Positions 44,445 to 53,610 of a stretch of DNA of 64,000 bases are shown one piece after another (the first letter of the stretch is position 1; every line of letters begins with the position of its first letter). A program made the translations under genes and the position numbers. The DNA lies in NCBI GenBank assembly GCA_964387275.1, contig CAYLVW010000001.1, positions 227,436 to 291,435 on the forward strand, read 5' to 3'. Source of the DNA: an uncultured Candidatus Saccharibacteria bacterium. Its GTDB lineage: Bacteria > Patescibacteriota > WWE3 > UBA101185 > UBA10185. The notes below the pieces were generated by a model, which did not search any database, was not told the origin of the DNA, and saw nothing but the letters and a program-made list of their open reading frames with translations.

Positions 44445-47363
44445 ATGTTTAAAGAGATAAATTCTTCCCCGAATTTTCCGGAAATGGAGAAAAAAACTAA
44501 CGATTTTTGGAACAAGCTTAAAATTGTTGAGAAAGTACGAGCTTTAAGAAATACTGACAAGGTAGGTGAGAAAGTATATTACGATGGTCCTATAACAGCA
44601 AATGGAATGCCTCACTATGGTCATGCGATTACATGGACCTTAAAAGATGTTGTGCCTAGGTATTGGAGTATGTTGGGATACCAGGTACTTAGAAATATGG
44701 GCTGGGATTGCCAGGGAATACCAGTTGAGTACGAAGTTGAGAAAGAGTTAAAGTTTGAAAAAAAGGAAGATATAGAGGCATTTGGGGTTGAAAAATTTAA
44801 CCAGCTATGCAGAGAATCTGTTTTAAAACACCAGAAAGTTATGTTTGAGTATGAAACTCGCATTGGTAGGTGGTTTGATAACAAAGAAATTTATGCAACT
44901 ATGGACCCAACTTACATAGAAAGTATTTGGTGGTCACTAAAAGAGCTTTATACAAAGGGTTTGTTATATGAGGGACATAAAGTTGTAGCTTATTCCACAA
45001 GAGCAGGTACGACCTTATCCACTCATGAAGTAAGTGAGGGTGGCTACAAGGAGATAGAGGATCCTTGGATAACAGTAAGGTTTCCATTAGTTTCTACTGA
45101 AAAATTTTCAAAATATCTTCCTAATGGTGTTGCTAAGACATTTATTTTAGCTTGGACTACTACGCCTTGGACAATACCAGGTAATCTAATGCTTGCCGTT
45201 GGAGTTTCCATACAGTATGTAATGGTTGTGTGCGAAGGCAGTGCCTATATTGTTGCCAAAGAAAGACTAGAGGCAGTTTTTGAGGGTAAAACTTATACAA
45301 CAGTAGCAGAAATCTCCTCCTCCGATTTGCTTGGGTTGGAATACTCCCAACCTTTTAAACATTATGAATCAAAAAGAAGCGAGGGATGTTTTAGAATAAT
45401 CTCAGCTTCTCACACTAATACAGAAGATGGTACTGGTATAGTTCACCTGGCCCCCTATGGTGCTGAAGACTTTGAAGTTTTTATGGAGAGGGGGATTAAG
45501 ATTTTTGATTATCTGGATGAGAGCACAAACTTTACCAAAGACATACCAGAATATTCAGGTTTGTTTTATAAACAAGCCAATAAGAAAATTATCGCTGATC
45601 TACAAAATAAAGGCTTGCTATTTTCCCATGGTACCGTAGTGCACAGGATGCCAATGTGCTGGAGAACAGGGACACCACTAATATATAAACCTGTTAAGAG
45701 CTGGTATGTGGCAGTTTCTAAACTAAAAGATAAATTGAAAGAACAAAATCAGTCACTTAACTGGTACCCAGAGCATCTAAAAAATGGTAATGCTGGTATT
45801 TGGATAAACAATGCTAGGGACTGGGCAATATCCAGATCTAGGTACTGGGGTACTCCTCTTCCGGTTTGGGTTAATGACAAGACCGGAGATATATTAGTGA
45901 TAGGTTCTTTTAAAGAGCTTCAAGATTTATCTGGTGTTTTGTTAAGTGATCCTCACAAGCCGTTTGTAGACGACATTACTTGGGAAGACAAGGCAAAAGG
46001 CGGTACTTTCAGAAGAATCAAAGATGTAATTGATGTTTGGTACGACTCAGGATCTATGCCCTTTGCTAGGTTGCACTATCCTTTTGAAAACAAAGACAAG
46101 TTTGAAGAATCATTTCCAGCTGAGTACATTGCCGAGGGCCCAGATCAAGTGAGACTATGGTTTTATGTAATGCACGTTCTTGGGGTTGCTTTATTTGATA
46201 AAGTACCATATAAAAACGTAGTTACGATAGGTACTATGCTAGATGAGCACGGGAAGAAACTATCTAAAAGTAAGAAAAATTATAAGCCAATGGATGAGGT
46301 TTTAGATGTTTATGGTGGGGATGTTTTAAGATATTTTATTCTTAACTCCTCCATAGTAAGTGGTACTGATAGTATCTTTTCTGAAAAATATCTAATTGAA
46401 GCAAGGAAAGAATTTTTCTTAATACTTTGGAACTCTCTTAAGTATTTTGTATCTTATGCTAATATTCACAATTTTGTACCCTCTAGTGACTATCCAGAAT
46501 TAAACGAGGTTAATGATTATTACTTGCTTGATAAATGGTTATTAGCTAAGTTTAAGGTTTTGCAGTCAGAAGTACTTAGCAGTATGAGTAGATATGATAT
46601 TTTAAATGCAGCAAGACAGTTTGGTCCATTTATAACAGACTTATCCACCTGGTATATTAGACGTTCTAGGGATAGGATAAAAGAAGGGGACCTAGACTCC
46701 CTTAAATCACTGTACTTTGTATTTTCAGAGCTATCAAAGCTCTTGTCCCCATTTCTACCTTTCCTTAGCGAAGAAATATATCAAACCCTAAATCTACCTA
46801 AAACAACCGGAAAAGACTCAGTACACCTAGACAAGTTTGGATCAATACCAGATCTTACCAATGAAGATCAACAACTACTCCTACAAATGGAAACAACCAG
46901 AAAAATCGTGTCTCTAGCACTTTCCATAAGAGTAACCGAAGGGGTAAAAATACGACAACCCTTAAGTGACCTTGTTGTAGTATTCAAAAACAAAGACTTA
47001 GCAGAAAACTTTATTTCTAGACTCATAAATGATGAAGTCAATATCAAAACAATAGGTACAGTTTTACCATCTGACCTCTCTTCTTACAAAATGGCAGAAG
47101 ATACAGACTTTGTATTATATCTAAATACAGATATAACCGACGAGCTAAAACTTGAAGGAGACGCAAGAGATTTAGTTAGAAAGGTACAGGAAATGCGTAA
47201 GGAAAGTAATTTAGCTGTTGAAACCAAAATAGATTTAGTTCTTCCACAATCTCCAAAAAACAAACTTTTAATTGAGAATTTTAGAGATTATCTACTTGCC
47301 AAAACACAGGCTAAAACATTAGATATTTCTGATGAAGTTAATGATATAGTTATTAAATGCTAG
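44445..47363 (+). CDS. ileS: Isoleucine--tRNA ligase
   Basis: Class I HIGH (PHYGHA) and KMSKS (KLSKSKKN) motifs, with the IleRS-type GWDCQGIPVE segment. 972 aa, with no C-terminal zinc finger (type 2-like). Confidence 0.7.
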   Translation: MFKEINSSPNFPEMEKKTNDFWNKLKIVEKVRALRNTDKVGEKVYYDGPITANGMPHYGHAITWTLKDVVPRYWSMLGYQVLRNMGWDCQGIPVEYEVEKELKFEKKEDIEAFGVEKFNQLCRESVLKHQKVMFEYETRIGRWFDNKEIYATMDPTYIESIWWSLKELYTKGLLYEGHKVVAYSTRAGTTLSTHEVSEGGYKEIEDPWITVRFPLVSTEKFSKYLPNGVAKTFILAWTTTPWTIPGNLMLAVGVSIQYVMVVCEGSAYIVAKERLEAVFEGKTYTTVAEISSSDLLGLEYSQPFKHYESKRSEGCFRIISASHTNTEDGTGIVHLAPYGAEDFEVFMERGIKIFDYLDESTNFTKDIPEYSGLFYKQANKKIIADLQNKGLLFSHGTVVHRMPMCWRTGTPLIYKPVKSWYVAVSKLKDKLKEQNQSLNWYPEHLKNGNAGIWINNARDWAISRSRYWGTPLPVWVNDKTGDILVIGSFKELQDLSGVLLSDPHKPFVDDITWEDKAKGGTFRRIKDVIDVWYDSGSMPFARLHYPFENKDKFEESFPAEYIAEGPDQVRLWFYVMHVLGVALFDKVPYKNVVTIGTMLDEHGKKLSKSKKNYKPMDEVLDVYGGDVLRYFILNSSIVSGTDSIFSEKYLIEARKEFFLILWNSLKYFVSYANIHNFVPSSDYPELNEVNDYYLLDKWLLAKFKVLQSEVLSSMSRYDILNAARQFGPFITDLSTWYIRRSRDRIKEGDLDSLKSLYFVFSELSKLLSPFLPFLSEEIYQTLNLPKTTGKDSVHLDKFGSIPDLTNEDQQLLLQMETTRKIVSLALSIRVTEGVKIRQPLSDLVVVFKNKDLAENFISRLINDEVNIKTIGTVLPSDLSSYKMAEDTDFVLYLNTDITDELKLEGDARDLVRKVQEMRKESNLAVETKIDLVLPQSPKNKLLIENFRDYLLAKTQAKTLDISDEVNDIVIKC

Positions 47364-47980
47364 AACAACACACTTATTCTGGATATAGACCTGACGAGCC
47401 TGCAGATTTTAAGCGTTCTGAGGTAATATCTCCTGCTGTTTCTGATTACTGTGATTGGTTATTGCAAGAAATATCAGATACAGCGTCACCAGAGCGTAAT
47501 TTTGTAGCAATGGGTAAAGTTCTTGATACCATAAGGTTTTCAGAAGAGACCCCTCCGTCTCTAGAAGGAGGTTCTGAGGTAGAGCGTGAAGAGGCCAGGA
47601 TGAGGATAAATACTATAAACGCTTTAGAAAAAGTAGTAACTAATCACGCTTCTAGTCTCACTCTTGCCGAAATTCAAGATACTACTTTTGCATTAGATTC
47701 ACTAACTCAGCTTCACAGAGATTTTCTACTTAGAATTCTTCAAAACGCAGCTGACGATAATCCAAAAGCATTAGAGTTTTTCCACTTACATCCAGGAGAT
47801 GGGGAAAAAGTTAACGTTTTGGAGGAAATTACAAAAATATCTGAGCTTTTAGAATATCCCGGTACAGGTTATGTAAAACCTAGAGATCTTGAAGCTTTAT
47901 TGTTCGACTACAAGGACATAACATCTGCCCGTAACGGTTTTTTGTTGATTTCTAGATCACACAAAGCCTTTACTAATTAA
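47357..47980 (+). CDS. Hypothetical protein (207 aa)
   Basis: ORF overlapping the ileS stop by 7 nt. No recognisable domain, and its GC content is slightly above the local average. Confidence 0.45.
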   Translation: MLEQHTYSGYRPDEPADFKRSEVISPAVSDYCDWLLQEISDTASPERNFVAMGKVLDTIRFSEETPPSLEGGSEVEREEARMRINTINALEKVVTNHASSLTLAEIQDTTFALDSLTQLHRDFLLRILQNAADDNPKALEFFHLHPGDGEKVNVLEEITKISELLEYPGTGYVKPRDLEALLFDYKDITSARNGFLLISRSHKAFTN

Positions 47981-48039
47981 GTTTTTTGAAAACCCCGCAC
48001 TGCTCCTGCTTAGTTTTTTTTGTGTCTAAAGATTTAATG

Positions 48040-49083
48040 TTAATTACTAAATGTAGGAAGTATCATAAGCATTCTATTTTCCAATTTTGATCTTAAAGAC
48101 GCCACCTGCTGATTTCTTAAAAGTGCCGTTGATTGTAATAATTCCTCAAGGAAAGTAAGCTTTTTTGTTTGTGTTACAACTTGGTAGTCATCAAGACTTA
48201 GGTTACTCAGAGTTGCAACCTCACTTACAAAGTCGTCATATGATTTTATATCATCTATTAACCCAAGTTTATTGGCTTGAGTATTTTCATAAATTAATGC
48301 ACCCACCTCTTCCTTAATTGTTGTTGGATTTAGCTCTCTATTTGTGGCCACATGGTTTACAAAATTTTCGTATTCATTATTAATTCCTTCTTGTAGTGTT
48401 TGTTTTGTTTTATCAGACATCTTTTTATAAGGATTATCAAAATCTTTATCAAAACCTGCTGTAATATAGTATCTGTTTATACCAAACTCCGTAGACACAG
48501 CATCTCCAAACTGTGAAGATTCCGAGAGCACATTGTTATACTCTTTAAACGGCCCAAGTATTACTCCAATGCTTCCAGTAAGGCTTCCATAGTCTGCTGT
48601 AACTTTATCTCCAGAGGCTGCCACCCAGTAAGCACCACTGGCTGCCAGACCTGATATATGAGAATAAACTTTTCTGCTGCTTAAAGTGTTGTATTGAGCA
48701 ATACCGTCGGAAATTGCTTTAGCTCCTGTAATTGTGCCTCCGGGAGAGTTTATAGATAAAATCACAGCTTTTATGTCGCCATTTTCACTAGCAGTTAGTA
48801 ATTGTTTTTTTATATCGTACCCGTAAGTTACGTTGTAAGCTGTTAGAAGGTCAAGTATTGGTGATCCTGACGTATTAGAATCTAGGATTATTCCACTAAT
48901 ATCTATTTGAAGAATTTTGTTTGAAGATTTCTTATTACCATAGACGTAGGTATAGCTTTTATCTTGATCTTTGTCACCTTTATCTTCTGAAAATAGAGTG
49001 CTAAAGCCCAATAACAATGCATTGTAACCAAGAATAATAATTAATGCACCAATAACAAAGCTAAATAAACAGGATTTCTTTGA
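48040..49083 (-). CDS. sppA: Signal peptide peptidase SppA (S49 family, 36K type)
   Basis: KAVILSINSPGGTITGAKAISDGI (ClpP/crotonase-fold S49 motif). The start is placed at the internal MSKKSCLFSFVIGALIIILG TM segment; the ORF track extends to 49263. Confidence 0.75.
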   Translation of the reverse strand, partial: SKKSCLFSFVIGALIIILGYNALLLGFSTLFSEDKGDKDQDKSYTYVYGNKKSSNKILQIDISGIILDSNTSGSPILDLLTAYNVTYGYDIKKQLLTASENGDIKAVILSINSPGGTITGAKAISDGIAQYNTLSSRKVYSHISGLAASGAYWVAASGDKVTADYGSLTGSIGVILGPFKEYNNVLSESSQFGDAVSTEFGINRYYITAGFDKDFDNPYKKMSDKTKQTLQEGINNEYENFVNHVATNRELNPTTIKEEVGALIYENTQANKLGLIDDIKSYDDFVSEVATLSNLSLDDYQVVTQTKKLTFLEELLQSTALLRNQQVASLRSKLENRMLMILPTFSN

Positions 49084-49108
49084 CATTAAATTATGATAGC
49101 ATACTAAT

Positions 49109-49969
49109 ATGTTAGCAAATCCAGAGATTGTATTAAAAACAGATAGTGAAACTCCGGAGCCTGCACTTACTAAAGCTTCTGAGTTACTAGGTTTAGAAGG
49201 TGCTGAGAAAGAATTTTTGGAATTAGTGAGAGAAGCTGAAGAAAGATATTTAAGAGACAACACTTTTATAAAGCCTTCTGTTTATGGTTATGCTGTCGGT
49301 GCCTTATATAATACTGCACTGGATCGTGCAGAAGCCTCGGCTCATAACAGGGAAGAGTTAGCTGCTAATCTTAGATACGTTAATGGAATGTTTAGGCCGT
49401 TATTCGAATATCAACCTCGAGATCAATCCCGTAGTTCTGAGATGGCTAGGACTGTACGCTCGGGGCTAATAGTAGAACGTGCTGTTAGAAAAGTATTAGA
49501 AGGAGCAGGATACAGCACCAGAGCCCCTACATTAAAAATGGAGGCTAATGGTGTTGATTTAGTAATTCCTGTAGATGTTGATGGCGATACTCAGTACGGA
49601 TTGGCACAGATTAAGTCGGTTTATCTACCTAATGAGCTTAGTGACATGGGCATACGTGTTTTCGAAACCCCAACTGAAATAACCCAACTCGCAGATACGC
49701 ACTTTTTAGATGAATCTTACAATAGGTATGATAATACAACTACACCACATGGTCGGGTAATCAACTCGTGCCAAAAACTACTAAGATATAGTACGGAGTT
49801 TGAAAATGCTACACCAATGCTTATAATAGTTCCTTCTCCAGATAGCCCTCATTCGTGGATAAACATGGAATTAGGTACTGTTGTTGGTGATCCTAAAGAT
49901 CTAAGAAAAAGACATGAAGCTGTAGACTCTGTACTTTATAAAATATTTTTTGAAAGAGGCAAGAAATGA
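49109..49969 (+). CDS. Hypothetical protein (286 aa)
   Basis: No confident domain; a weak PD-(D/E)xK-like pattern (GVDLVIPVDVDGD...AQIKS). Its stop overlaps the next small ORF (ATGA). Confidence 0.45.
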   Translation: MLANPEIVLKTDSETPEPALTKASELLGLEGAEKEFLELVREAEERYLRDNTFIKPSVYGYAVGALYNTALDRAEASAHNREELAANLRYVNGMFRPLFEYQPRDQSRSSEMARTVRSGLIVERAVRKVLEGAGYSTRAPTLKMEANGVDLVIPVDVDGDTQYGLAQIKSVYLPNELSDMGIRVFETPTEITQLADTHFLDESYNRYDNTTTPHGRVINSCQKLLRYSTEFENATPMLIIVPSPDSPHSWINMELGTVVGDPKDLRKRHEAVDSVLYKIFFERGKK

Positions 49970-50151
49970 CTAGATTCCAGCTACCTGACTACGAAGAAAA
50001 AACTAAAGAAATTACTTGTAAAAAGGCCAAAGAGATATTTGAGTTGGTAATATCTAACCCGAAGAACGTTCCGTTTGATATCTTTTTAGAATCTCATCTT
50101 CATTTTTCCACTTGCCAAAAATGTCGAGCAACACTTAAGAAACAAAAATGA
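49966..50151 (+). CDS. Hypothetical small protein (61 aa) with a C-terminal CxxC pair
   Basis: Translationally coupled to the upstream ORF (ATGA overlap), with ...ITCKK...STCQKCRATLKKQK. Confidence 0.3.
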   Translation: MTRFQLPDYEEKTKEITCKKAKEIFELVISNPKNVPFDIFLESHLHFSTCQKCRATLKKQK

Positions 50152-50224
50152 AACAGAGTTTTTCACGTCAGCTCAACCTGTTCACCTCATCTGCCAACAA
50201 ACGTTGGTAATATTAAAGTGAGTT

Positions 50225-50875
50225 TTAATTTAGTTCCAACAGATTACTAAATACCTCAGGAGTTAAAGCGTCACCATCTGTCATTTTCCGCCAATTTAAG
50301 ATATGTTTTCTTAGTTTTTCATTTAGTTTGGCCATTGCATCATCTTTATTTATTTGTAATTGTCTTGAGATTGTTGATTCTGCTGAAATACCTGTTACCA
50401 AATGTTTATAGAAAGCAGTTACTGCAAGTTTATTTACATTCTGACCACCGGGTCCCGAAGATTTACTTCTAACATCTAAACTTATGTTACCAAGTCCTAA
50501 TTCGTTGTAAGCAAGCCCCGATAGATCTTCCTCGTGTATATAGCTATTTATCCAAGAAACATATCTACCTATTCGTTTTTGATTTTCTATATGATTTTCT
50601 GTAACCGGAAATCTTGCTAAATCAGCAACAAGAGCTTTTTTAGTATCTGCCATTTGTTTTTCTTTGCTGTTTCTAAGCTGACTATCTTCTATAGCCTTTG
50701 TTGTTTTTGCTCCATGCTTTTTTGTTTTGCCGCCTCCCCCACCCCGCTTTTTTTCTAAACCTTCTTCGTAGTCTTCCCAAATATCATATATCTCTTCAAT
50801 TTCTTCTGGGCTTATTTTTGATGTATCCTCCTGATCTGGTTTTTCAGGATTTTGAGGTGTTGTAAATGTGGGCAT
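50225..50875 (-). CDS. RF-1 domain (GGQ) peptidyl-tRNA hydrolase-like protein with an N-terminal acidic and Gly/Lys-rich extension (ArfB/ICT1-like catalytic domain)
   Basis: ...SLDVRSKSSGPGGQNVNKLAVTAFYKHL... is a GGQ-motif RF-1 domain (PF00472) occupying the C-terminal ~115 aa. The N-terminal ~100 aa is EEIEEIYDIWEDYEEGLEKKRGGGGGKTKKHGAKTTK. Confidence 0.55.
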   Translation of the reverse strand: MPTFTTPQNPEKPDQEDTSKISPEEIEEIYDIWEDYEEGLEKKRGGGGGKTKKHGAKTTKAIEDSQLRNSKEKQMADTKKALVADLARFPVTENHIENQKRIGRYVSWINSYIHEEDLSGLAYNELGLGNISLDVRSKSSGPGGQNVNKLAVTAFYKHLVTGISAESTISRQLQINKDDAMAKLNEKLRKHILNWRKMTDGDALTPEVFSNLLELN

Positions 50876-50957
50876 GTTTTGATTTTAGCAGGTTACTCAT
50901 GGTAGTAAAACAATAGTGTTCATAGATGGTTTTGGATTTATGAGAAGGTAAAAAAAT

Positions 50958-51014
50958 CCGGACCACCACATTGAGTAAAACTACACTTTCGTGTGTCTCA
51001 ATGTGATGATCCGG
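50958..51014. repeat. Imperfect 18-bp inverted repeat (CCGGACCACCACATTGAG / CTCAATGTGATGATCCGG) with a 21-nt spacer at the 3' boundary of the GC-rich gene
   Basis: Read directly from the sequence: 16 of 18 positions are complementary. It may be a terminator or an island boundary. Confidence 0.4.
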
Positions 51015-51026
51015 TCTAGGTGTCAG

Positions 51027-51686
51027 TTAGTCGTTGCCGTATTCCTCCTGGAACTGCTTGGTTTGGGCAGCGCGGCGTCGGATTTCGTTCTGCTCTTGGC
51101 CGCTAAGCCGGTTCCATTTCCTTTCAGCACGTTCAGCCGAGCGACCGATTTTTCCGCCGAGCACCAATTTTGGTGCCGGAAGGTTCAAGGCGGATTCCAG
51201 ATCGGTCTTGGCCTGTTCGTGTCGTCGCTCTGCCTCCATGCGACTTTCGTGCATCTTGCCCTCGACCAGCCCGTAGATGATGCCGTGCATCGACTTGTTC
51301 ACCAGGTCTGGGGAGTCGGACGAGTTGTCGACGATCAGTTTTCTCGACGGCTCCGTAGACCATTTATACCCCTTGGTTTTCACGTCGGCGTCGACCCAGT
51401 CGCAGGTTGCTACCGCTAGGCGGATCATGTACGGCTTCAGCCGCCCGTTGAGGTTGCTGAGAGACTCACGGATCTTCTTGACCGTGACGCTGCTGAGGAT
51501 GCCGTTGTCCGTGGTCTTGAGGATCAGATCGAGCTCCCCCATGTCGAGGTTCGCCATCTCGGCAACCTTTTCAATGACTGCATTGCCTTCCTCGCCCCAA
51601 TCGGCGGCGAGAAGCATGCTAGCCGTGTCGATCACGGCCTGGAAGGCACCGATGAAACCGTTTGGCTTGCCATTCGTGTCCGTCAT
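51027..51686 (-). CDS. Hypothetical protein (219 aa) encoded by compositionally foreign DNA (about 57% GC, against about 36% for the flanks); probable horizontal acquisition
   Basis: Abrupt GC shift confined to about 50.99-51.72 kb. It contains one long ORF with a sensible composition (MTDTNGKPNGFIGAFQAVIDTASMLLAADWGEEGNAVIEKV...) and several GC-induced shadow ORFs on other frames. I do not recognise the product. Confidence 0.55.
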   Translation of the reverse strand: MTDTNGKPNGFIGAFQAVIDTASMLLAADWGEEGNAVIEKVAEMANLDMGELDLILKTTDNGILSSVTVKKIRESLSNLNGRLKPYMIRLAVATCDWVDADVKTKGYKWSTEPSRKLIVDNSSDSPDLVNKSMHGIIYGLVEGKMHESRMEAERRHEQAKTDLESALNLPAPKLVLGGKIGRSAERAERKWNRLSGQEQNEIRRRAAQTKQFQEEYGND

Positions 51687-52218
51687 GGTGTTAATCTCCT
51701 GTAACAGGTGTACCCCCTAGAAAAGGGATACGAAAAGAAAGGTTCCAATAAGACTTTTTAAACTGACTTATTTAGTTTTCAAATTTTGATAGCGCTTCTC
51801 CTTATACTGAATAAATGCCCAAATAAGAATACCAGAGACCTGGTTTGATGTTTTTAGTTGATATAACGGGAAAACAATCCTTATTTAGACATTTATCCTT
51901 GGTATTTCGCTGTAGCTAAGTAATTTGAGCTAAGCTAAAAGGAGGCTGTACTAATTGATACAAATACACTATAACACTATAGGTTCAAATCTGTCAAGTC
52001 TTTAGAAGCATTATTTATACTAGTGCAAAGTTAATGTTACTAGCTTATACACACATTAGGTGGGAAGAGGGCAGTGATATTAAGAGAAAGTACAAGTTAC
52101 TCATTGCAAGGAATTTGATAAGCTGACGCTTTGGTATAGTGATACTTATATAAATTTTTGATGTTAAAGTTTAATTATTTATCAGAAATTTTTTTGTGAA
52201 ATGTGATAAGATAATTTT

Positions 52219-53610
52219 ATGCCCAATGTTGTAATTTCATTAAGCAAAAATAAATTGAAAGCAAGTGTAATTCTTACAAAGAGTATTGGTAAGAGTTTTT
52301 CCAGAGATGTGTTTACACAGGTTTTTGAATTGCCCGATACAGTTGTTAACGATACGATTATTTTAGACGCTGCACAGTTTGCTTCTGCTGTTAGCGATGT
52401 TGTATTACAACTTGTAGAAAAAAGCGGTAAAAGATTTAGTCCTAAAAAAGTTTCCCTCACATTTTTAACAGAACCTCAGAATGAAGTTTTAAAGTTTGTT
52501 ACAGTAAATAAACAGAGTGGCGACACAGAAGCACAAGTAATAGCAGAGGTAACATCCAAATTAAACCAAATAAAAATTGAGGATTTATATTTTACTTATT
52601 CTAAGGTTGCACCTTTTGTATATCAATTCGTAGGAGTAGAGAAGTCTATTTTAGATAAATATCTGGAAGTTTCAAATTTGCTACAAGTTGAGTTAAAAGG
52701 GGTTTTTCCTTGGGTTATGTTTTTACCAAAGTTTACAGGTGGTGTGGATCCTGCTATTTACGTATCCAATTCAGATGGTAGACAGGTAGTTGCTCTGTCT
52801 GAGCTTGGGGGTATCTATTATTCTTCTACATTCAGCGATGAGAGATCCACAGCAGAGCTTGAAAAGATGGTACACGAGCTTTCTATTTACAAGAGATCAA
52901 CGCCTATTAATAAGATTTTTTCACTAGATGAGTTTGAATTTAGTTTGGACCCTACATACGAGCTTGCCAAGATAAATTTAGGTGATATGTCTGAAAATCC
53001 AGAAGTTAGAGGTTTTGAGCATCACTTGGTAGCTGATTCTATTGTTGAATCAGATCCTCTTATATATACAGGAGTTGAAAATCTTCTGAATTTGTTACCA
53101 CTTCCAGTAGTTGAGCGTAAGAATTCTAAATCATTAGTATATGTAGGCGGTGGTGTGGCCTTATTCTTACTAATGGGAGGAATTTTTGGAGGCTTTTATC
53201 TATTCGGAGGGAAAATTGGTTCAAATAACTCAGCAAATGTGCTTAGTAATAGTGATTCAAAGCTTGAAGTTCCTACACCAACCCCAACCTTAGAAACTAC
53301 ACCTACACCTGTTCCAACCCCCGTTCTTGTTAAATCTGATTTTAAGATACGTGTGGAGAACGGATCGGGAATCCCCGGAGCAGCAGGAAAGGCTCAAGGA
53401 GTGCTTCAAGGGCTTGGCTACACCGTACCTGATATCGGCAATGCAGATGAGTCAGATAGATCTACCACATTAATTAAAATTAAGACATCAAAGTTGTCTT
53501 ATAAAGATCTTCTAATTACTGATCTAAAGTCTTCTTATGAACTTGTTGTAGAAGACGGACTTAATGAAACCACCGAATATGACGCTTTGATGGTTGTGGG
53601 TCAGAAGTAG
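52219..53610 (+). CDS. Bitopic membrane protein with a C-terminal LytR_C (LytR/CpsA/Psr C-terminal) domain
   Basis: About 300 aa cytoplasmic region, one TM helix (LVYVGGGVALFLLMGGIFGGFYLF), a Pro/Thr-rich linker (PTPTPTLETTPTPVPTPV), then KIRVENGSGIPGAAGKAQGVLQGLGYTV...GNAD...TTLIKIK, typical of LytR_C (PF13399). Confidence 0.6.
   Translation: MPNVVISLSKNKLKASVILTKSIGKSFSRDVFTQVFELPDTVVNDTIILDAAQFASAVSDVVLQLVEKSGKRFSPKKVSLTFLTEPQNEVLKFVTVNKQSGDTEAQVIAEVTSKLNQIKIEDLYFTYSKVAPFVYQFVGVEKSILDKYLEVSNLLQVELKGVFPWVMFLPKFTGGVDPAIYVSNSDGRQVVALSELGGIYYSSTFSDERSTAELEKMVHELSIYKRSTPINKIFSLDEFEFSLDPTYELAKINLGDMSENPEVRGFEHHLVADSIVESDPLIYTGVENLLNLLPLPVVERKNSKSLVYVGGGVALFLLMGGIFGGFYLFGGKIGSNNSANVLSNSDSKLEVPTPTPTLETTPTPVPTPVLVKSDFKIRVENGSGIPGAAGKAQGVLQGLGYTVPDIGNADESDRSTTLIKIKTSKLSYKDLLITDLKSSYELVVEDGLNETTEYDALMVVGQK

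What the first reader, a model, noticed from the sequence alone, without database searches (positions are those of the whole stretch)
49109..50875. GGQ (RF-1 domain) peptidyl-tRNA hydrolase-like protein with a long N-terminal extension, next to a translationally coupled unknown gene pair
The minus-strand 216-aa protein has an ArfB/ICT1-type GGQ domain (SSGPGGQNVNK) in its C-terminal half. It is preceded by an acidic stretch and a Gly5-Lys-rich basic segment, which is the reverse of ArfB, where the basic tail is C-terminal. Immediately adjacent and convergent is a 286-aa unknown protein (weak PD-(D/E)xK-like pattern) whose stop overlaps a 61-aa CxxC protein (ATGA coupling). A ribosome-rescue or peptidyl-tRNA-hydrolase-like effector beside a coupled large/small gene pair is the kind of architecture seen in stress or abortive-infection modules. 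This is speculative.
Basis: partly seen in the sequence, partly recalled or inferred. Interest (0 to 1): 0.5.

Follow-up and report, generated by a model that had tools for sequence, protein, structure and literature searches.

The report
Release-factor-like hydrolase with novel N-terminal arm
The gene encodes a member of an uncharacterised but conserved family of small release-factor-like proteins from ultra-small (Patescibacteria) and Chloroflexota bacteria; it probably frees stalled ribosomes using an N-terminal arm instead of the usual C-terminal tail, and the odd neighbouring gene pair recurs beside it in a strain-variable slot.

Summary
ORF 50225-50875(-) encodes 216 aa with a canonical GGQ domain (Pfam RF-1, 42.7 bits against a cutoff of 35). 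It is preceded by an acidic helix, a Gly5 loop and a long basic helix.

This is not a one-off. About 117 clusters at 50% identity, from Patescibacteria and Chloroflexota, share the whole architecture. None has a basic C-terminal tail.

The GGQ domain is of the RF1/RF2/PrfH/C12orf65 type, not the ArfB/ICT1 type. It fails every NCBIfam equivalog cutoff, and no curated family covers the N-terminal part.

Orthologues sit in translation contexts (GGQ-TGT; GGQ-YchF-S6-SSB-S18). The most likely role is therefore a housekeeping, codon-independent peptidyl-tRNA hydrolase or ribosome-rescue factor. Its N-terminal hairpin may replace the ArfB tail, but that is inferred.

The 286-aa and 61-aa pair is real and translationally coupled. 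It has remote homologues, with a conserved E/D/QxK pattern and a C-x27-HxxxCxxC zinc motif. These lie next to the GGQ gene in at least two other Patescibacteria lineages. There, however, the pair occupies a 2.2-kb slot that is swapped for an unrelated cassette between strains with identical GGQ proteins. No defence-family hit was found.

The abortive-infection reading is only weakly supported. I rate this a new variant of a known kind, of moderate interest.

The parts
50225..50875 (-). Gene for the 216-aa stand-alone GGQ (class-I release-factor-like) protein. It belongs to an uncharacterised Patescibacteria/Chloroflexota family.
   Evidence: The ORF was found. Pfam RF-1 scores 42.7 bits against a cutoff of 35. 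It is the only GGQ-domain ORF in the 64-kb window. The AF2 model has pLDDT 85.7 and pTM 0.71. GC3 is 0.21, which is native composition.
50441..50449 (-). Codons of the catalytic GGQ tripeptide (residues 143-145), within SSGPGGQNVNK.
   Evidence: G143, G144, Q145 and K149 are invariant in the 46-sequence alignment A1.
50750..50845 (-). Acidic N-terminal segment (residues 11-42). The model places a helix at residues 23-42.
   Evidence: Net charge before the Gly window is -9 here. It is negative in 91% of 117 family representatives.
50729..50743 (-). Gly5 run (residues 45-49). This is the tip loop between the acidic and basic helices.
   Evidence: The family consensus is KGGGGGG and G48 is nearly invariant. 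In the model the loop covers residues 43-55 with lower pLDDT.
50618..50728 (-). Basic segment and long helix (residues 50-86). It is the candidate ribosome/rRNA-binding arm and may replace the ArfB C-terminal tail.
   Evidence: T58 is nearly invariant. The 35 residues after the Gly window are net positive in 85% of members. The model places a helix at 56-86 with pLDDT 87-97. The functional role is inferred.
50882..50909 (-). Promoter-like site (TTTACT-16-TAAAAT with TG) directly upstream of the GGQ start codon.
   Evidence: This is a consensus scan only. A hairpin at 50958-51014 lies between it and the upstream ORF. This suggests the GGQ gene is transcribed on its own.
49109..49969 (+). Gene for the 286-aa protein, the large gene of the 'Type A' cassette. 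It has a helical N-terminal half and a central E123...D150...Q167-x-K169 pattern (PD-(D/E)xK-like). Its function is unknown.
   Evidence: - The ORF was found.
- The only close hit in 5.8 billion proteins is itself.
- Alignment with L092_288 and L090_304 keeps G-x3-E, G(F/Y), P, G-x-D-L and Q-x-K.
- A profile built from the three relatives ranks it first of 835 window ORFs.
- Only 1 of 3000 shuffles reaches its score.
- The AF2 model is poor, with pLDDT 46.
- GC3 is 0.25, which is native.
49966..50151 (+). Gene for the 61-aa protein, the small gene of the 'Type A' cassette. It carries a C18-x27-H46-x3-C50-x2-C53 zinc motif of the zf-HC2/ZAS kind. Its start overlaps the stop of the 286-aa gene (ATGA).
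   Evidence: - The sequence was read.
- Alignment A5 has invariant C18, H46, C50 and C53.
- It is the only one of 835 window ORFs with this pattern.
- The small-protein profile ranks it first, and 8 of 3000 shuffles reach its score.
- The homologue L090_69 hits Pfam zf-HC2 below threshold, 15.3 against 22.2 bits.
50152..50224 (.). The 73-bp convergent spacer between the stop codons of the 61-aa gene and the GGQ gene.
   Evidence: Read. The consensus scan found no strong terminator here.
51027..51686 (-). Foreign 219-aa ORF in a high-GC island, immediately upstream of the GGQ promoter. It sits where orthologous loci have a strain-variable slot.
   Evidence: GC is 0.574 and GC3 is 0.75, against window means of 0.361 and 0.289 (z = 5.4 and 6.3). 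It has no hit in Pfam, NCBIfam, PHROGs, PADLOC, the PDB, phages or plasmids. The link to the variable slot is inferred.

Best explanation
The 216-aa protein belongs to a conserved, uncharacterised family of stand-alone class-I-release-factor-like proteins found in Patescibacteria (CPR) and Chloroflexota.

Shown:
- It has a complete, canonical GGQ domain of the RF1/RF2/PrfH/C12orf65 type.
- It has no codon-recognition domains.
- It has no basic C-terminal tail.
- It has a family-wide N-terminal module: acidic helix, Gly-rich loop, long basic helix, and a further helix. In the model that further helix lies next to the C-terminal helix of the GGQ domain. It carries the nearly invariant Y105 and W108, and the C-terminal helix carries H191 and W195. 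That these residues pack together is inferred.

Inferred:
- It is a housekeeping, codon-independent peptidyl-tRNA hydrolase that rescues stalled ribosomes.
- It puts GGQ into the peptidyl-transferase centre. The N-terminal helical hairpin, with its glycine-rich basic tip, binds rRNA in or near the vacant A site or mRNA channel. This would replace the C-terminal tail of ArfB.
- By rough geometry, a helix of about 46 A plus a GGQ domain of about 30 A approaches the roughly 75 A between the decoding centre and the peptidyl-transferase centre.

The adjacent 286-aa and 61-aa pair is a separate, rapidly evolving two-gene cassette: a nuclease-like protein plus a small zinc protein. It recurs beside the GGQ gene because the flank of that gene is a strain-variable slot. 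A functional link is possible but unproven.
For: Catalytic domain:
- Pfam RF-1 scores above its cutoff in the window protein and in all 46 aligned members.
- G143, G144, Q145, K149, H158 and N176 are invariant.
- The family profile matches RF1 at 7e-24, PrfH at 6e-23, RF2 at about 1e-20 and C12orf65 at 1.5e-17 across the whole domain.

Family and architecture:
- There are 130 phmmer hits, of which 117 share the architecture.
- Named members come from Patescibacteria and WWE3.
- There is a full-length member in a Chloroflexota MAG.
- AF2 gives pLDDT 85.7 and pTM 0.71, with pLDDT of 96-97 over most of residues 61-110.

Housekeeping context:
- GGQ-TGT lie on the same strand, 30-70 bp apart, in L088, L090/91, L092 and L100.
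- GGQ-YchF-S6-SSB-S18 is seen in L097-99 and L103.
- The same protein sequence is seen in many samples: 40 and 57 index blocks.
- Codon composition in the window is native.
- No member is found in IMG/VR viral contigs.

Vacant niche:
- Canonical ArfB was found in only 1 of 16 Chloroflexi genomes, in a survey that used a 20-kDa size cutoff (PMC4235212).
Against: - There is no biochemical or structural evidence for ribosome binding or hydrolysis.
- The role of the N-terminal arm rests on charge, conservation and rough geometry. I had no model coordinates.
- I could not examine whole genomes, so complementarity with ArfB, ArfA, tmRNA or RqcH is untested.
- The 286/61 pair sits beside the gene in three lineages, including one with different synteny and orientation. 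This hints at a functional link that the housekeeping reading does not explain.
- A few family members have lost the GGQ motif (for example GGE in P0113), so not all are hydrolases.
- A single-query phmmer search finds only about 117 clusters, so the family may be less universal in CPR than a core factor should be.
Confidence: 0.55

Rival explanations
1. The GGQ protein works with the adjacent variable cassette as a conflict module, on the logic of PrfH-RtcB. The nuclease-like 286-aa protein would be held in check by the 61-aa zinc protein. It, or the agents it responds to, would damage RNA or stall ribosomes. The GGQ factor would then release the stalled peptidyl-tRNA. Alternative cassettes (Type A, Type B and others) would be interchangeable partners.
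For: - In every Type A locus whose flank is visible (window, L092, L090), the pair is within one gene of a GGQ orthologue. The window has different synteny and a convergent rather than divergent orientation.
- Homology of both genes is supported independently, with 1/3000 and 8/3000 shuffles.
- In L090 the 304-aa gene and the GGQ gene share a 56-bp divergent control region.
- Unrelated two-gene cassettes with the same large-plus-small layout occupy the same place in L088, L091, L100 and L098.
- Burroughs and Aravind argue that several GGQ paralogues (PrfH, C12orf65) arose in conflict contexts (PMC6514570).
Against: - The GGQ protein is identical in L090 and L091 while the cassette is swapped.
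- Chloroflexota-like loci, L103 and L104-107 have no such cassette.
- There are no PADLOC or PHROGs defence hits.
- The nuclease assignment rests on a motif only. The AF2 model has pLDDT 46 and there is no PDB or Pfam hit.
- L090 and L092 share synteny, so they may count as a single evolutionary event.
Confidence: 0.2
2. The protein acts on split large subunits that still carry peptidyl-tRNA, not on 70S non-stop complexes. This would be a bacterial analogue of mitochondrial mtRF-R (C12orf65). The N-terminal helical arm would bind the 50S intersubunit face or the P-site tRNA.
For: The GGQ domain lacks the alpha-i insert and matches C12orf65 across the whole domain (E 1.5e-17; 7a5h). The helical arm is compact and highly confident, rather than a flexible tail.
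Against: - No S4-like partner (MTRES1/RqcP type) lies next to the gene in any locus examined.
- C12orf65 has a C-terminal basic extension and this family does not.
- Nothing here distinguishes 70S from 50S substrates.
Confidence: 0.15
3. The GGQ protein is itself a toxic or abortive-infection effector that releases nascent chains prematurely. The neighbouring pair, or the protein's own acidic N-terminal helix, would act as its inhibitor.
For: An acidic helix precedes a basic helix, which could be an intramolecular mask. The gene lies beside variable, possibly mobile cassettes and a foreign GC-rich gene.
Against: - Inheritance looks vertical, in housekeeping operons across two phyla.
- Composition is native.
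- The sequence is identical across strains that carry different neighbours.
- The family is absent from viral contigs and from the PADLOC models.
Confidence: 0.05

Closest known systems
ArfB (YaeJ) / mitochondrial ICT1 (mL62)
   Same: Both are small stand-alone GGQ proteins without codon-recognition domains. Both have a charged helical appendage that, in ArfB, probes the empty mRNA channel. The likely job, codon-independent peptide release, is the same.
   Different: - Here the appendage is N-terminal and is predicted to be a folded acidic/Gly-loop/basic helical hairpin, not a flexible C-terminal tail.
- The GGQ domain lacks the alpha-i insert of ArfB class 1 and ICT1.
- The family profile aligns with ArfB/ICT1 only over the GGQ loop.
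- The NCBIfam ArfB equivalog scores 15.7 against a cutoff of 100.
RF1 / RF2 domain 3
   Different: Domains 1, 2 and 4 are absent, as are the PxT and SPF motifs. The protein has 216 aa rather than about 360. prfA and prfB models score 25-32 bits against cutoffs of 370-423.
PrfH (release factor H, paired with RtcB2)
   Same: Both are short release-factor paralogues of about 200 aa. The GGQ domain is nearly as similar to PrfH as it is to RF1 (E 6e-23). Both have a possible association with conflict-type neighbours.
   Different: PrfH keeps a reduced codon-recognition domain. This family has an unrelated helical N-terminus. TIGR03072 scores 29 against a cutoff of 166.65. No RtcB was found among the neighbours scanned with Pfam in the window, or listed in the precomputed Pfam tables of the related loci (and the locus tables).
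C12orf65 / mtRF-R and 'classical' ArfB (Burroughs & Aravind 2019)
   Same: Both have an insert-free GGQ domain plus a charged helical region, in a stand-alone factor.
   Different: In those proteins the charged region is C-terminal. No MTRES1/RqcP-like partner was seen here. The N-terminal module described here is not among the architectures listed in PMC6514570.
zf-HC2 (ZAS) anti-sigma zinc fingers, compared with the 61-aa protein
   Same: It has the C/H-x(~27)-H-x3-C-x2-C ligand pattern. It is a small protein translationally coupled to an upstream partner gene.
   Different: It is only 61 aa and ends 8 residues after the CxxC. It scores below the Pfam threshold. The partner shows no sigma-70 domains.

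Membership tests
Pfam RF-1 (PF00472) GGQ peptidyl-hydrolase domain | Score at or above the gathering cutoff | tested here: met
   The window protein scores 42.7 bits against a cutoff of 35, over residues 137-191. All 46 members of A1 match.
Pfam RF-1 (PF00472) GGQ peptidyl-hydrolase domain | Catalytic GGQ tripeptide in its conserved context (SGxGGQxVNK) | tested here: met
   SSGPGGQNVNK is at residues 139-149. G143, G144, Q145 and K149 are invariant in A1.
ArfB / YaeJ / ICT1 | NCBIfam equivalog NF006718 at or above its cutoff | tested here: not met
   It scores 15.7 bits against a cutoff of 100, and only residues 137-151 align.
ArfB / YaeJ / ICT1 | Basic C-terminal tail or helix after a linker | tested here: not met
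   The last 30 residues have net charge +1 here and a median of -1 in the family. The basic segment is N-terminal.
ArfB / YaeJ / ICT1 | Stand-alone GGQ domain without codon-recognition domains | tested here: met
   The protein has 216 aa. Only the GGQ domain matches any release factor.
ArfB / YaeJ / ICT1 | Codon-independent peptidyl-tRNA hydrolysis on non-stop ribosomes | not testable with these tools
   This needs in-vitro release assays or genetic complementation.
RF1 / RF2 | Full-length equivalog score; domains 1, 2 and 4 with the PxT/SPF tripeptide | tested here: not met
   prfA scores 25.6 against 423, PRK00591 31.8 against 400 and prfB 32.2 against 370. Matches are confined to residues 131-194.
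PrfH | TIGR03072 at or above its cutoff | tested here: not met
   It scores 29 bits against a cutoff of 166.65.
PrfH | Operon with an RtcB-type RNA ligase | tested here: not met
   No RtcB was found among the genes at 47357-53610. None is listed in the precomputed Pfam tables of the related loci.
C12orf65 / mtRF-R | Insert-free GGQ domain | tested here: met
   Profile positions 101-165 align with 7a5h_C at E 1.5e-17.
C12orf65 / mtRF-R | C-terminal basic extension and an S4-like partner (MTRES1) | tested here: not met
   There is no basic C-terminus. No S4-domain neighbour is listed in the precomputed Pfam tables of any locus. The partner could still be encoded elsewhere.
PD-(D/E)xK nuclease superfamily (286-aa protein) | E...D...(D/E/Q)xK on an alpha-beta-beta-beta core | tested here: inconclusive
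   E123, D150 and Q167-x-K169 are conserved with L092_288 and L090_304. The order of predicted secondary structure fits, but the model has pLDDT 46. There is no Pfam or PDB hit.
zf-HC2 / ZAS zinc finger (61-aa protein) | H-x3-C-x2-C plus an upstream Cys/His ligand | tested here: met
   C18, H46, C50 and C53 are invariant in A5. The pattern is unique among 835 window ORFs.
zf-HC2 / ZAS zinc finger (61-aa protein) | Pfam PF13490 at or above its cutoff; cognate sigma factor encoded upstream | tested here: not met
   The window protein has no hit. The homologue L090_69 scores 15.3 against 22.2. The 286-aa protein has no Sigma70 domain hit.
Known anti-phage defence / abortive-infection systems | Match to a PADLOC model for any of the three genes or their homologues | tested here: not met
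   There were no hits at E <= 0.1 for the ten proteins submitted.

The most novel reading that the evidence does not exclude
The family is a previously unrecognised class of ribosome-rescue release factor in Patescibacteria and Chloroflexota. It would read the state of the A site with an N-terminal acidic/basic helical hairpin tipped by a glycine-rich loop. It would also be genetically coupled to interchangeable two-gene conflict cassettes, either a nuclease-like protein plus a zinc protein or alternatives. That would make it a CPR counterpart of the PrfH-RtcB 'repair the attacked ribosome' logic.
Probability: 0.15. Interest if true: 0.75.

Novelty: new variant of a known kind. Interest (0 to 1): 0.45.

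Why it matters
Stand-alone GGQ factors (ArfB, ICT1, mtRF-R, PrfH) are the known ways of releasing peptides without a stop codon. Each couples the same catalytic domain to a different sensor.

This family would add a further sensor architecture: an N-terminal folded hairpin instead of a C-terminal tail. It occurs in lineages with minimal genomes (CPR) and in Chloroflexota, where canonical ArfB is rare. It would therefore help to explain how those organisms deal with non-stop ribosomes.

It also offers a compact new scaffold for structural work on A-site recognition.

The recurrent, strain-variable two-gene cassettes beside the gene give a concrete and testable case of a possible link between ribosome rescue and genetic conflict in CPR bacteria. 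Very little is known about defence or toxin systems in these organisms.

Tried and rejected
- **Word-indexed homologue search, GGQ protein:** it gave only 5 hits. The exhaustive phmmer search was needed to see the family.
- **Scan of genome contigs with A1:** the pattern GGQNVNK recovered mostly ordinary RF1/RF2/ArfB genes. Only L016 is a true member.
- **Scan of viral contigs with A1:** 52 loci were returned. All match only the GGQ domain (RF-like or ArfB-like phage genes), and none is a family member.
- **Searches for the 286-aa family:** the result was an ORFan. A profile search found only P0145 and P0146. The metagenome scan found one 1.5-kb contig. The viral scan found none.
- **AF2 model of the 286-aa protein:** with 3 sequences it gave pLDDT 46, which is unusable, so no fold search was run on it.
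- **Other searches on the cassette proteins and the 219-aa ORF:** the profile search against PDB sequences, Pfam, NCBIfam, PHROGs and PADLOC found nothing significant.
- **Are Type B cassette proteins short versions of Type A?** hhalign gives a probability below 1%, so this was rejected.
- **Is the 286-aa protein a sigma factor partnered with a ZAS protein?** There is no Sigma70 hit, so this was rejected.
- **Is the GC island a structured RNA?** Rfam finds nothing even at E <= 1, and GC3 of 0.75 in the ORF frame argues for coding sequence.
- **Flanking repeats around the GC island:** only short, chance-level matches were found.
- **Are the CPR synteny partners (650-aa protein, TGT, CysRS, RecR) in the window?** tblastn finds none.
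Full report
**1. Observation**

The window is low in GC (about 36%). It carries dcw-cluster genes, ftsA/ftsZ, a ribonucleotide reductase and IleRS upstream of the finding.

At the stated coordinates there is a 216-aa ORF on the minus strand (50225..50875). Convergent with it lies a 286-aa ORF (49109..49969). The stop of that ORF overlaps the start of a 61-aa ORF (49966..50151) in an ATGA.

The 216-aa protein has these features:
- SSGPGGQNVNK at residues 139-149
- an acidic N-terminus
- RGGGGGK at residues 44-50
- a K-rich stretch after that

Pfam RF-1 scores 42.7 bits against a gathering cutoff of 35, covering only residues 137-191. This is the only GGQ-domain ORF in the 64 kb.

One detail needs correcting. 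The long SppA ORF that seems to overlap the 286-aa gene probably starts at 49086. That leaves 22 bp between two divergent genes.

**2. The GGQ protein belongs to a conserved family, and the N-terminal extension is part of it**

A word-indexed search found few relatives. An exhaustive phmmer search over 1.84 billion cluster representatives gave 130 hits. Most are 180-260 aa long and align over residues ~27-200 of the query.

A 46-sequence alignment (A1) shows the following conserved features:
- an acidic/aromatic motif (YxDxEE)
- a KGGGGGG loop
- a basic stretch with a nearly invariant Thr (T58)
- an invariant Tyr105 and a nearly invariant Trp108
- the GGQ block
- further invariant or near-invariant residues: H158, R171, N176, H191, W195

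Across 117 representatives the architecture is consistent:

| Feature | Value |
|---|---|
| Position of GGQ | about residue 122 |
| Residues after GGQ | about 76 |
| Net charge before the Gly-rich window | negative in 91% (median -5) |
| Net charge of the next 35 residues | positive in 85% (median +4) |
| Net charge of the last 30 residues | not basic (median -1) |

Named members come from Patescibacteria and WWE3. They are annotated only as 'hypothetical' or 'peptide chain release factor-like protein'. A full-length member lies in a Chloroflexota MAG (L016). Close relatives sit beside NADH/formate-dehydrogenase genes.

All 46 aligned members hit only PF00472 in Pfam. None reaches an NCBIfam cutoff.

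**3. What kind of GGQ domain it is**

The family profile aligns over the entire domain (profile positions 96-170) with these proteins:
- RF1, E 7e-24
- PrfH, E 6e-23
- RF2, E about 1e-20
- C12orf65, E 1.5e-17

With ArfB/ICT1 it aligns only over positions 101-133 (E 1e-10 to 1e-7).

NCBIfam scores are all far below their cutoffs:

| Model | Score (bits) | Cutoff (bits) |
|---|---|---|
| prfB | 32.2 | 370 |
| prfA | 25.6 | 423 |
| prfH | 29 | 166.65 |
| ArfB | 15.7 | 100 |

The domain is therefore the insert-free, RF-like ('classical') type.

The AF2 model built from A1 is confident (pLDDT 85.7, pTM 0.71). Its elements are:
- helix 23-42 (acidic)
- loop 43-55 (Gly-rich)
- helix 56-86 (basic, pLDDT 87-97)
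- helix 95-112
- the three-stranded GGQ domain
- helix 173-198
- helix 206-215

The review of release-factor diversity by Burroughs and Aravind lists RF1/2, classical and class 1 ArfB, PrfH, ICT1, C12orf65 and MRPS35. It does not list an N-terminally extended bacterial family (PMC6514570). Further literature searches found no description of one.

**4. Genomic context of orthologues**

In five Patescibacteria loci the order is RecR-CysRS-(650-aa gene, opposite strand)-[variable genes]-GGQ-TGT. GGQ and TGT lie on the same strand, 30-70 bp apart.

In WWE3 and in L103 the order is GGQ-YchF-S6-SSB-S18.

In another lineage a carbamoyltransferase gene lies upstream. An ECF sigma factor gene lies two genes downstream.

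In the Chloroflexota-like loci the neighbours are a bAvd-like protein, ComM and SecDF.

These are housekeeping contexts, several of them linked to translation. In the window the GGQ gene has native codon composition: GC3 0.21, against a window mean of 0.29 with sd 0.07. It appears to have its own promoter-like site. A hairpin separates it from the upstream ORF.

No family member occurs in IMG/VR viral contigs.

**5. The 286-aa and 61-aa pair**

The 286-aa protein is almost an ORFan.

In L092, which holds the closest GGQ relative at 38% identity, a 288-aa gene followed by a 61-aa gene lies one gene away from the GGQ gene. In L090 a 304-aa gene overlapping a 69-aa gene lies directly beside it, divergent, 56 bp apart.

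Similarities among these proteins are as follows:
- L090_304 and L092_288 are 32% identical (E 3e-24).
- The two small proteins are 47% identical (E 6e-15).
- The window's 286-aa protein matches L090_304 weakly: 25% identity over 166 aa, pairwise E 0.004.
- It aligns end to end with both relatives. The alignment conserves G-x3-E123, G134(F/Y), P140, G148-x-D150-L and Q167-x-K169.

I tested the remote homology with profiles built without the window sequences:
- The large-protein profile ranks the 286-aa ORF first of 835 window ORFs.
- The small-protein profile ranks the 61-aa ORF first.
- Only 1 of 3000 shuffles reaches the real score for the large protein, and 8 of 3000 for the small one.

The four small proteins share invariant C18, H46, C50 and C53, giving C-x27-H-x3-C-x2-C. 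Only this one window ORF has that pattern. L090_69 touches Pfam zf-HC2 below threshold.

I conclude that the window pair is homologous to the pairs in L090, L092 and L093 ('Type A'). It is not established. The AF2 model has pLDDT 46, and there are no Pfam, PDB, PHROGs or PADLOC hits.

**6. Is the trio a module?**

Evidence for a link:
- In every Type A locus with a visible flank, the pair lies within one gene of a GGQ orthologue.
- The window shares none of the other synteny genes.
- The window has the pair in a different orientation, convergent and downstream.

Evidence against a link:
- L090 and L091 encode identical GGQ proteins, and their flanks are 96-99% identical. The 2.2-2.3 kb between the start of the 650-aa gene and 22 bp upstream of the GGQ start is nevertheless completely different. 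L090 has Type A plus two genes. L091 has an unrelated 'Type B' pair (155 aa + 93 aa) plus two other genes.
- Type B also occupies this place in L088 and L100. WWE3 has yet another pair, 155 aa plus a 79-aa zinc ribbon.
- The WWE3 loci L097 and L098 have identical GGQ proteins but diverge from 192 bp upstream of the gene.
- The Chloroflexota-like loci, L103 and L104-107 have no such cassette.

The flank of the GGQ gene is therefore a strain-variable slot. In the window, the corresponding upstream position is occupied by a clearly foreign gene (section 8). The Type A pair itself has native composition.

The simplest reading is a core gene next to a recombination hot spot. A real functional coupling, on the logic of PrfH-RtcB, remains possible. 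I give it about 0.2.

**7. Mechanism**

Shown:
- The GGQ domain is complete and canonical.
- Codon-recognition domains are absent.
- There is no basic C-terminal tail.
- There is a conserved, confidently modelled N-terminal helical module with opposite charges on its two arms and a glycine-rich tip.
- The operon contexts are housekeeping ones.

Inferred:
- The protein is a codon-independent peptidyl-tRNA hydrolase that rescues stalled ribosomes.
- The N-terminal hairpin is the ribosome-binding or sensing element that replaces the ArfB tail.
- A 31-residue helix (about 46 A) plus the GGQ domain (about 30 A) approaches the roughly 75 A between the decoding centre and the peptidyl-transferase centre that release factors span. 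That distance comes from established structural knowledge. I had no coordinates and could not measure it on the model.

One published survey is consistent with a vacant niche. Canonical ArfB was found in only 1 of 16 Chloroflexi genomes, in a survey that used a 20-kDa size cutoff (PMC4235212).

Whether the substrate is a 70S non-stop complex or a split 50S-peptidyl-tRNA complex (as for mtRF-R) cannot be decided here.

**8. Noticed in passing**

A 219-aa ORF (51027..51686, minus strand) sits in a 0.7-kb island of 57-59% GC. Its GC3 is 0.75 (z = 6.3). It lies immediately upstream of the GGQ promoter. It has no homologue in any library searched and no Rfam match.

A few family members have lost the GGQ tripeptide.

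**9. Verdict**

I class the GGQ family as a new variant of a known kind, namely stand-alone GGQ release or rescue factors. It has an N-terminal sensor architecture that I could not find described in the curated libraries or the literature available to me. Interest is moderate.

Noticed in passing
window 50950-51750 (ORF 51027..51686, minus strand): This is a 0.7-kb island of 57-59% GC in a 36% GC genome. It holds a 219-aa ORF with GC3 of 0.75 (z = 6.3). The ORF has no homologue in Pfam, NCBIfam, PHROGs, PADLOC, PDB sequences, phages or plasmids, and the region has no Rfam match. It looks like a recent foreign acquisition and sits directly upstream of the GGQ promoter. An 18-nt-arm hairpin follows at 50958-51014.
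   Followed up: partly
L090:3700-5978 versus L091:3794-5978; L097 versus L098 upstream of the GGQ gene: Strains with identical GGQ proteins and 96-99% identical flanks carry completely different ~2.2-kb gene cassettes between the 650-aa gene and the GGQ start. The WWE3 strains diverge from 192 bp upstream of the GGQ gene. The 5' flank of the GGQ gene is therefore a recombination or variable hot spot in distant CPR lineages.
   Followed up: yes
L088:5211-5944, L091:3832-4631, L100:4149-4928: A second recurrent two-gene cassette ('Type B') occupies the same slot as the 286/61-type pair. It consists of a 139-155 aa protein with a GGD-x-hhh...D(L/V)TT motif plus a 78-93 aa protein. It has no Pfam, PADLOC or PHROGs hit and no detectable relation to Type A (hhalign probability below 1%).
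   Followed up: partly
L088-L093, L100 (for example L092:2102-4093, minus strand): A conserved ~650-aa protein with no Pfam domain (53-59% identity between lineages) always lies between CysRS and the variable slot, divergent from the GGQ gene. It has no homologue in the window.
   Followed up: no
L001:7148-7531, L004:2464-2859, L005:1222-1617, L098:248-628: A bAvd / 23S-rRNA-IVS-type four-helix-bundle protein (PF05635) lies immediately downstream of, and convergent with, the GGQ gene in the Chloroflexota-like loci. It also lies within 3 kb of the GGQ gene in a WWE3 locus. This may be chance, because the family is abundant.
   Followed up: no
window 48040-49263 (minus strand) and 49086-49109: The mechanical 407-aa SppA (Peptidase_S49) ORF overlaps the 286-aa gene. 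The plausible start (MSKKSC..., ATG at 49086) leaves only 22 bp between the two divergent start codons. Their promoters must therefore lie inside each other's coding regions, or the 286-aa gene starts at the internal GTG (V40), as in the 247-aa Logan gene call.
   Followed up: partly
window 47357-47980 (+): A 207-aa ORF has a start that overlaps the IleRS stop by 7 nt. It has no family hit in any library. It is unrelated to the 207-aa ORF that sits beside the GGQ gene in L092.
   Followed up: partly
proteins P0113, P0081, P0107, P0134, P0100 (family members): A minority of full-length family members lack the GGQ tripeptide (for example GGE in P0113). These are possibly catalytically inactive paralogues.
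   Followed up: no
L108-L159 (IMG/VR viral contigs, many over 200 kb): Many large phage contigs encode release-factor-like GGQ proteins. Some are full-length RF-like at about 350-390 aa, and others are short forms of 120-220 aa. None has the N-terminal module of the family studied here.
   Followed up: partly
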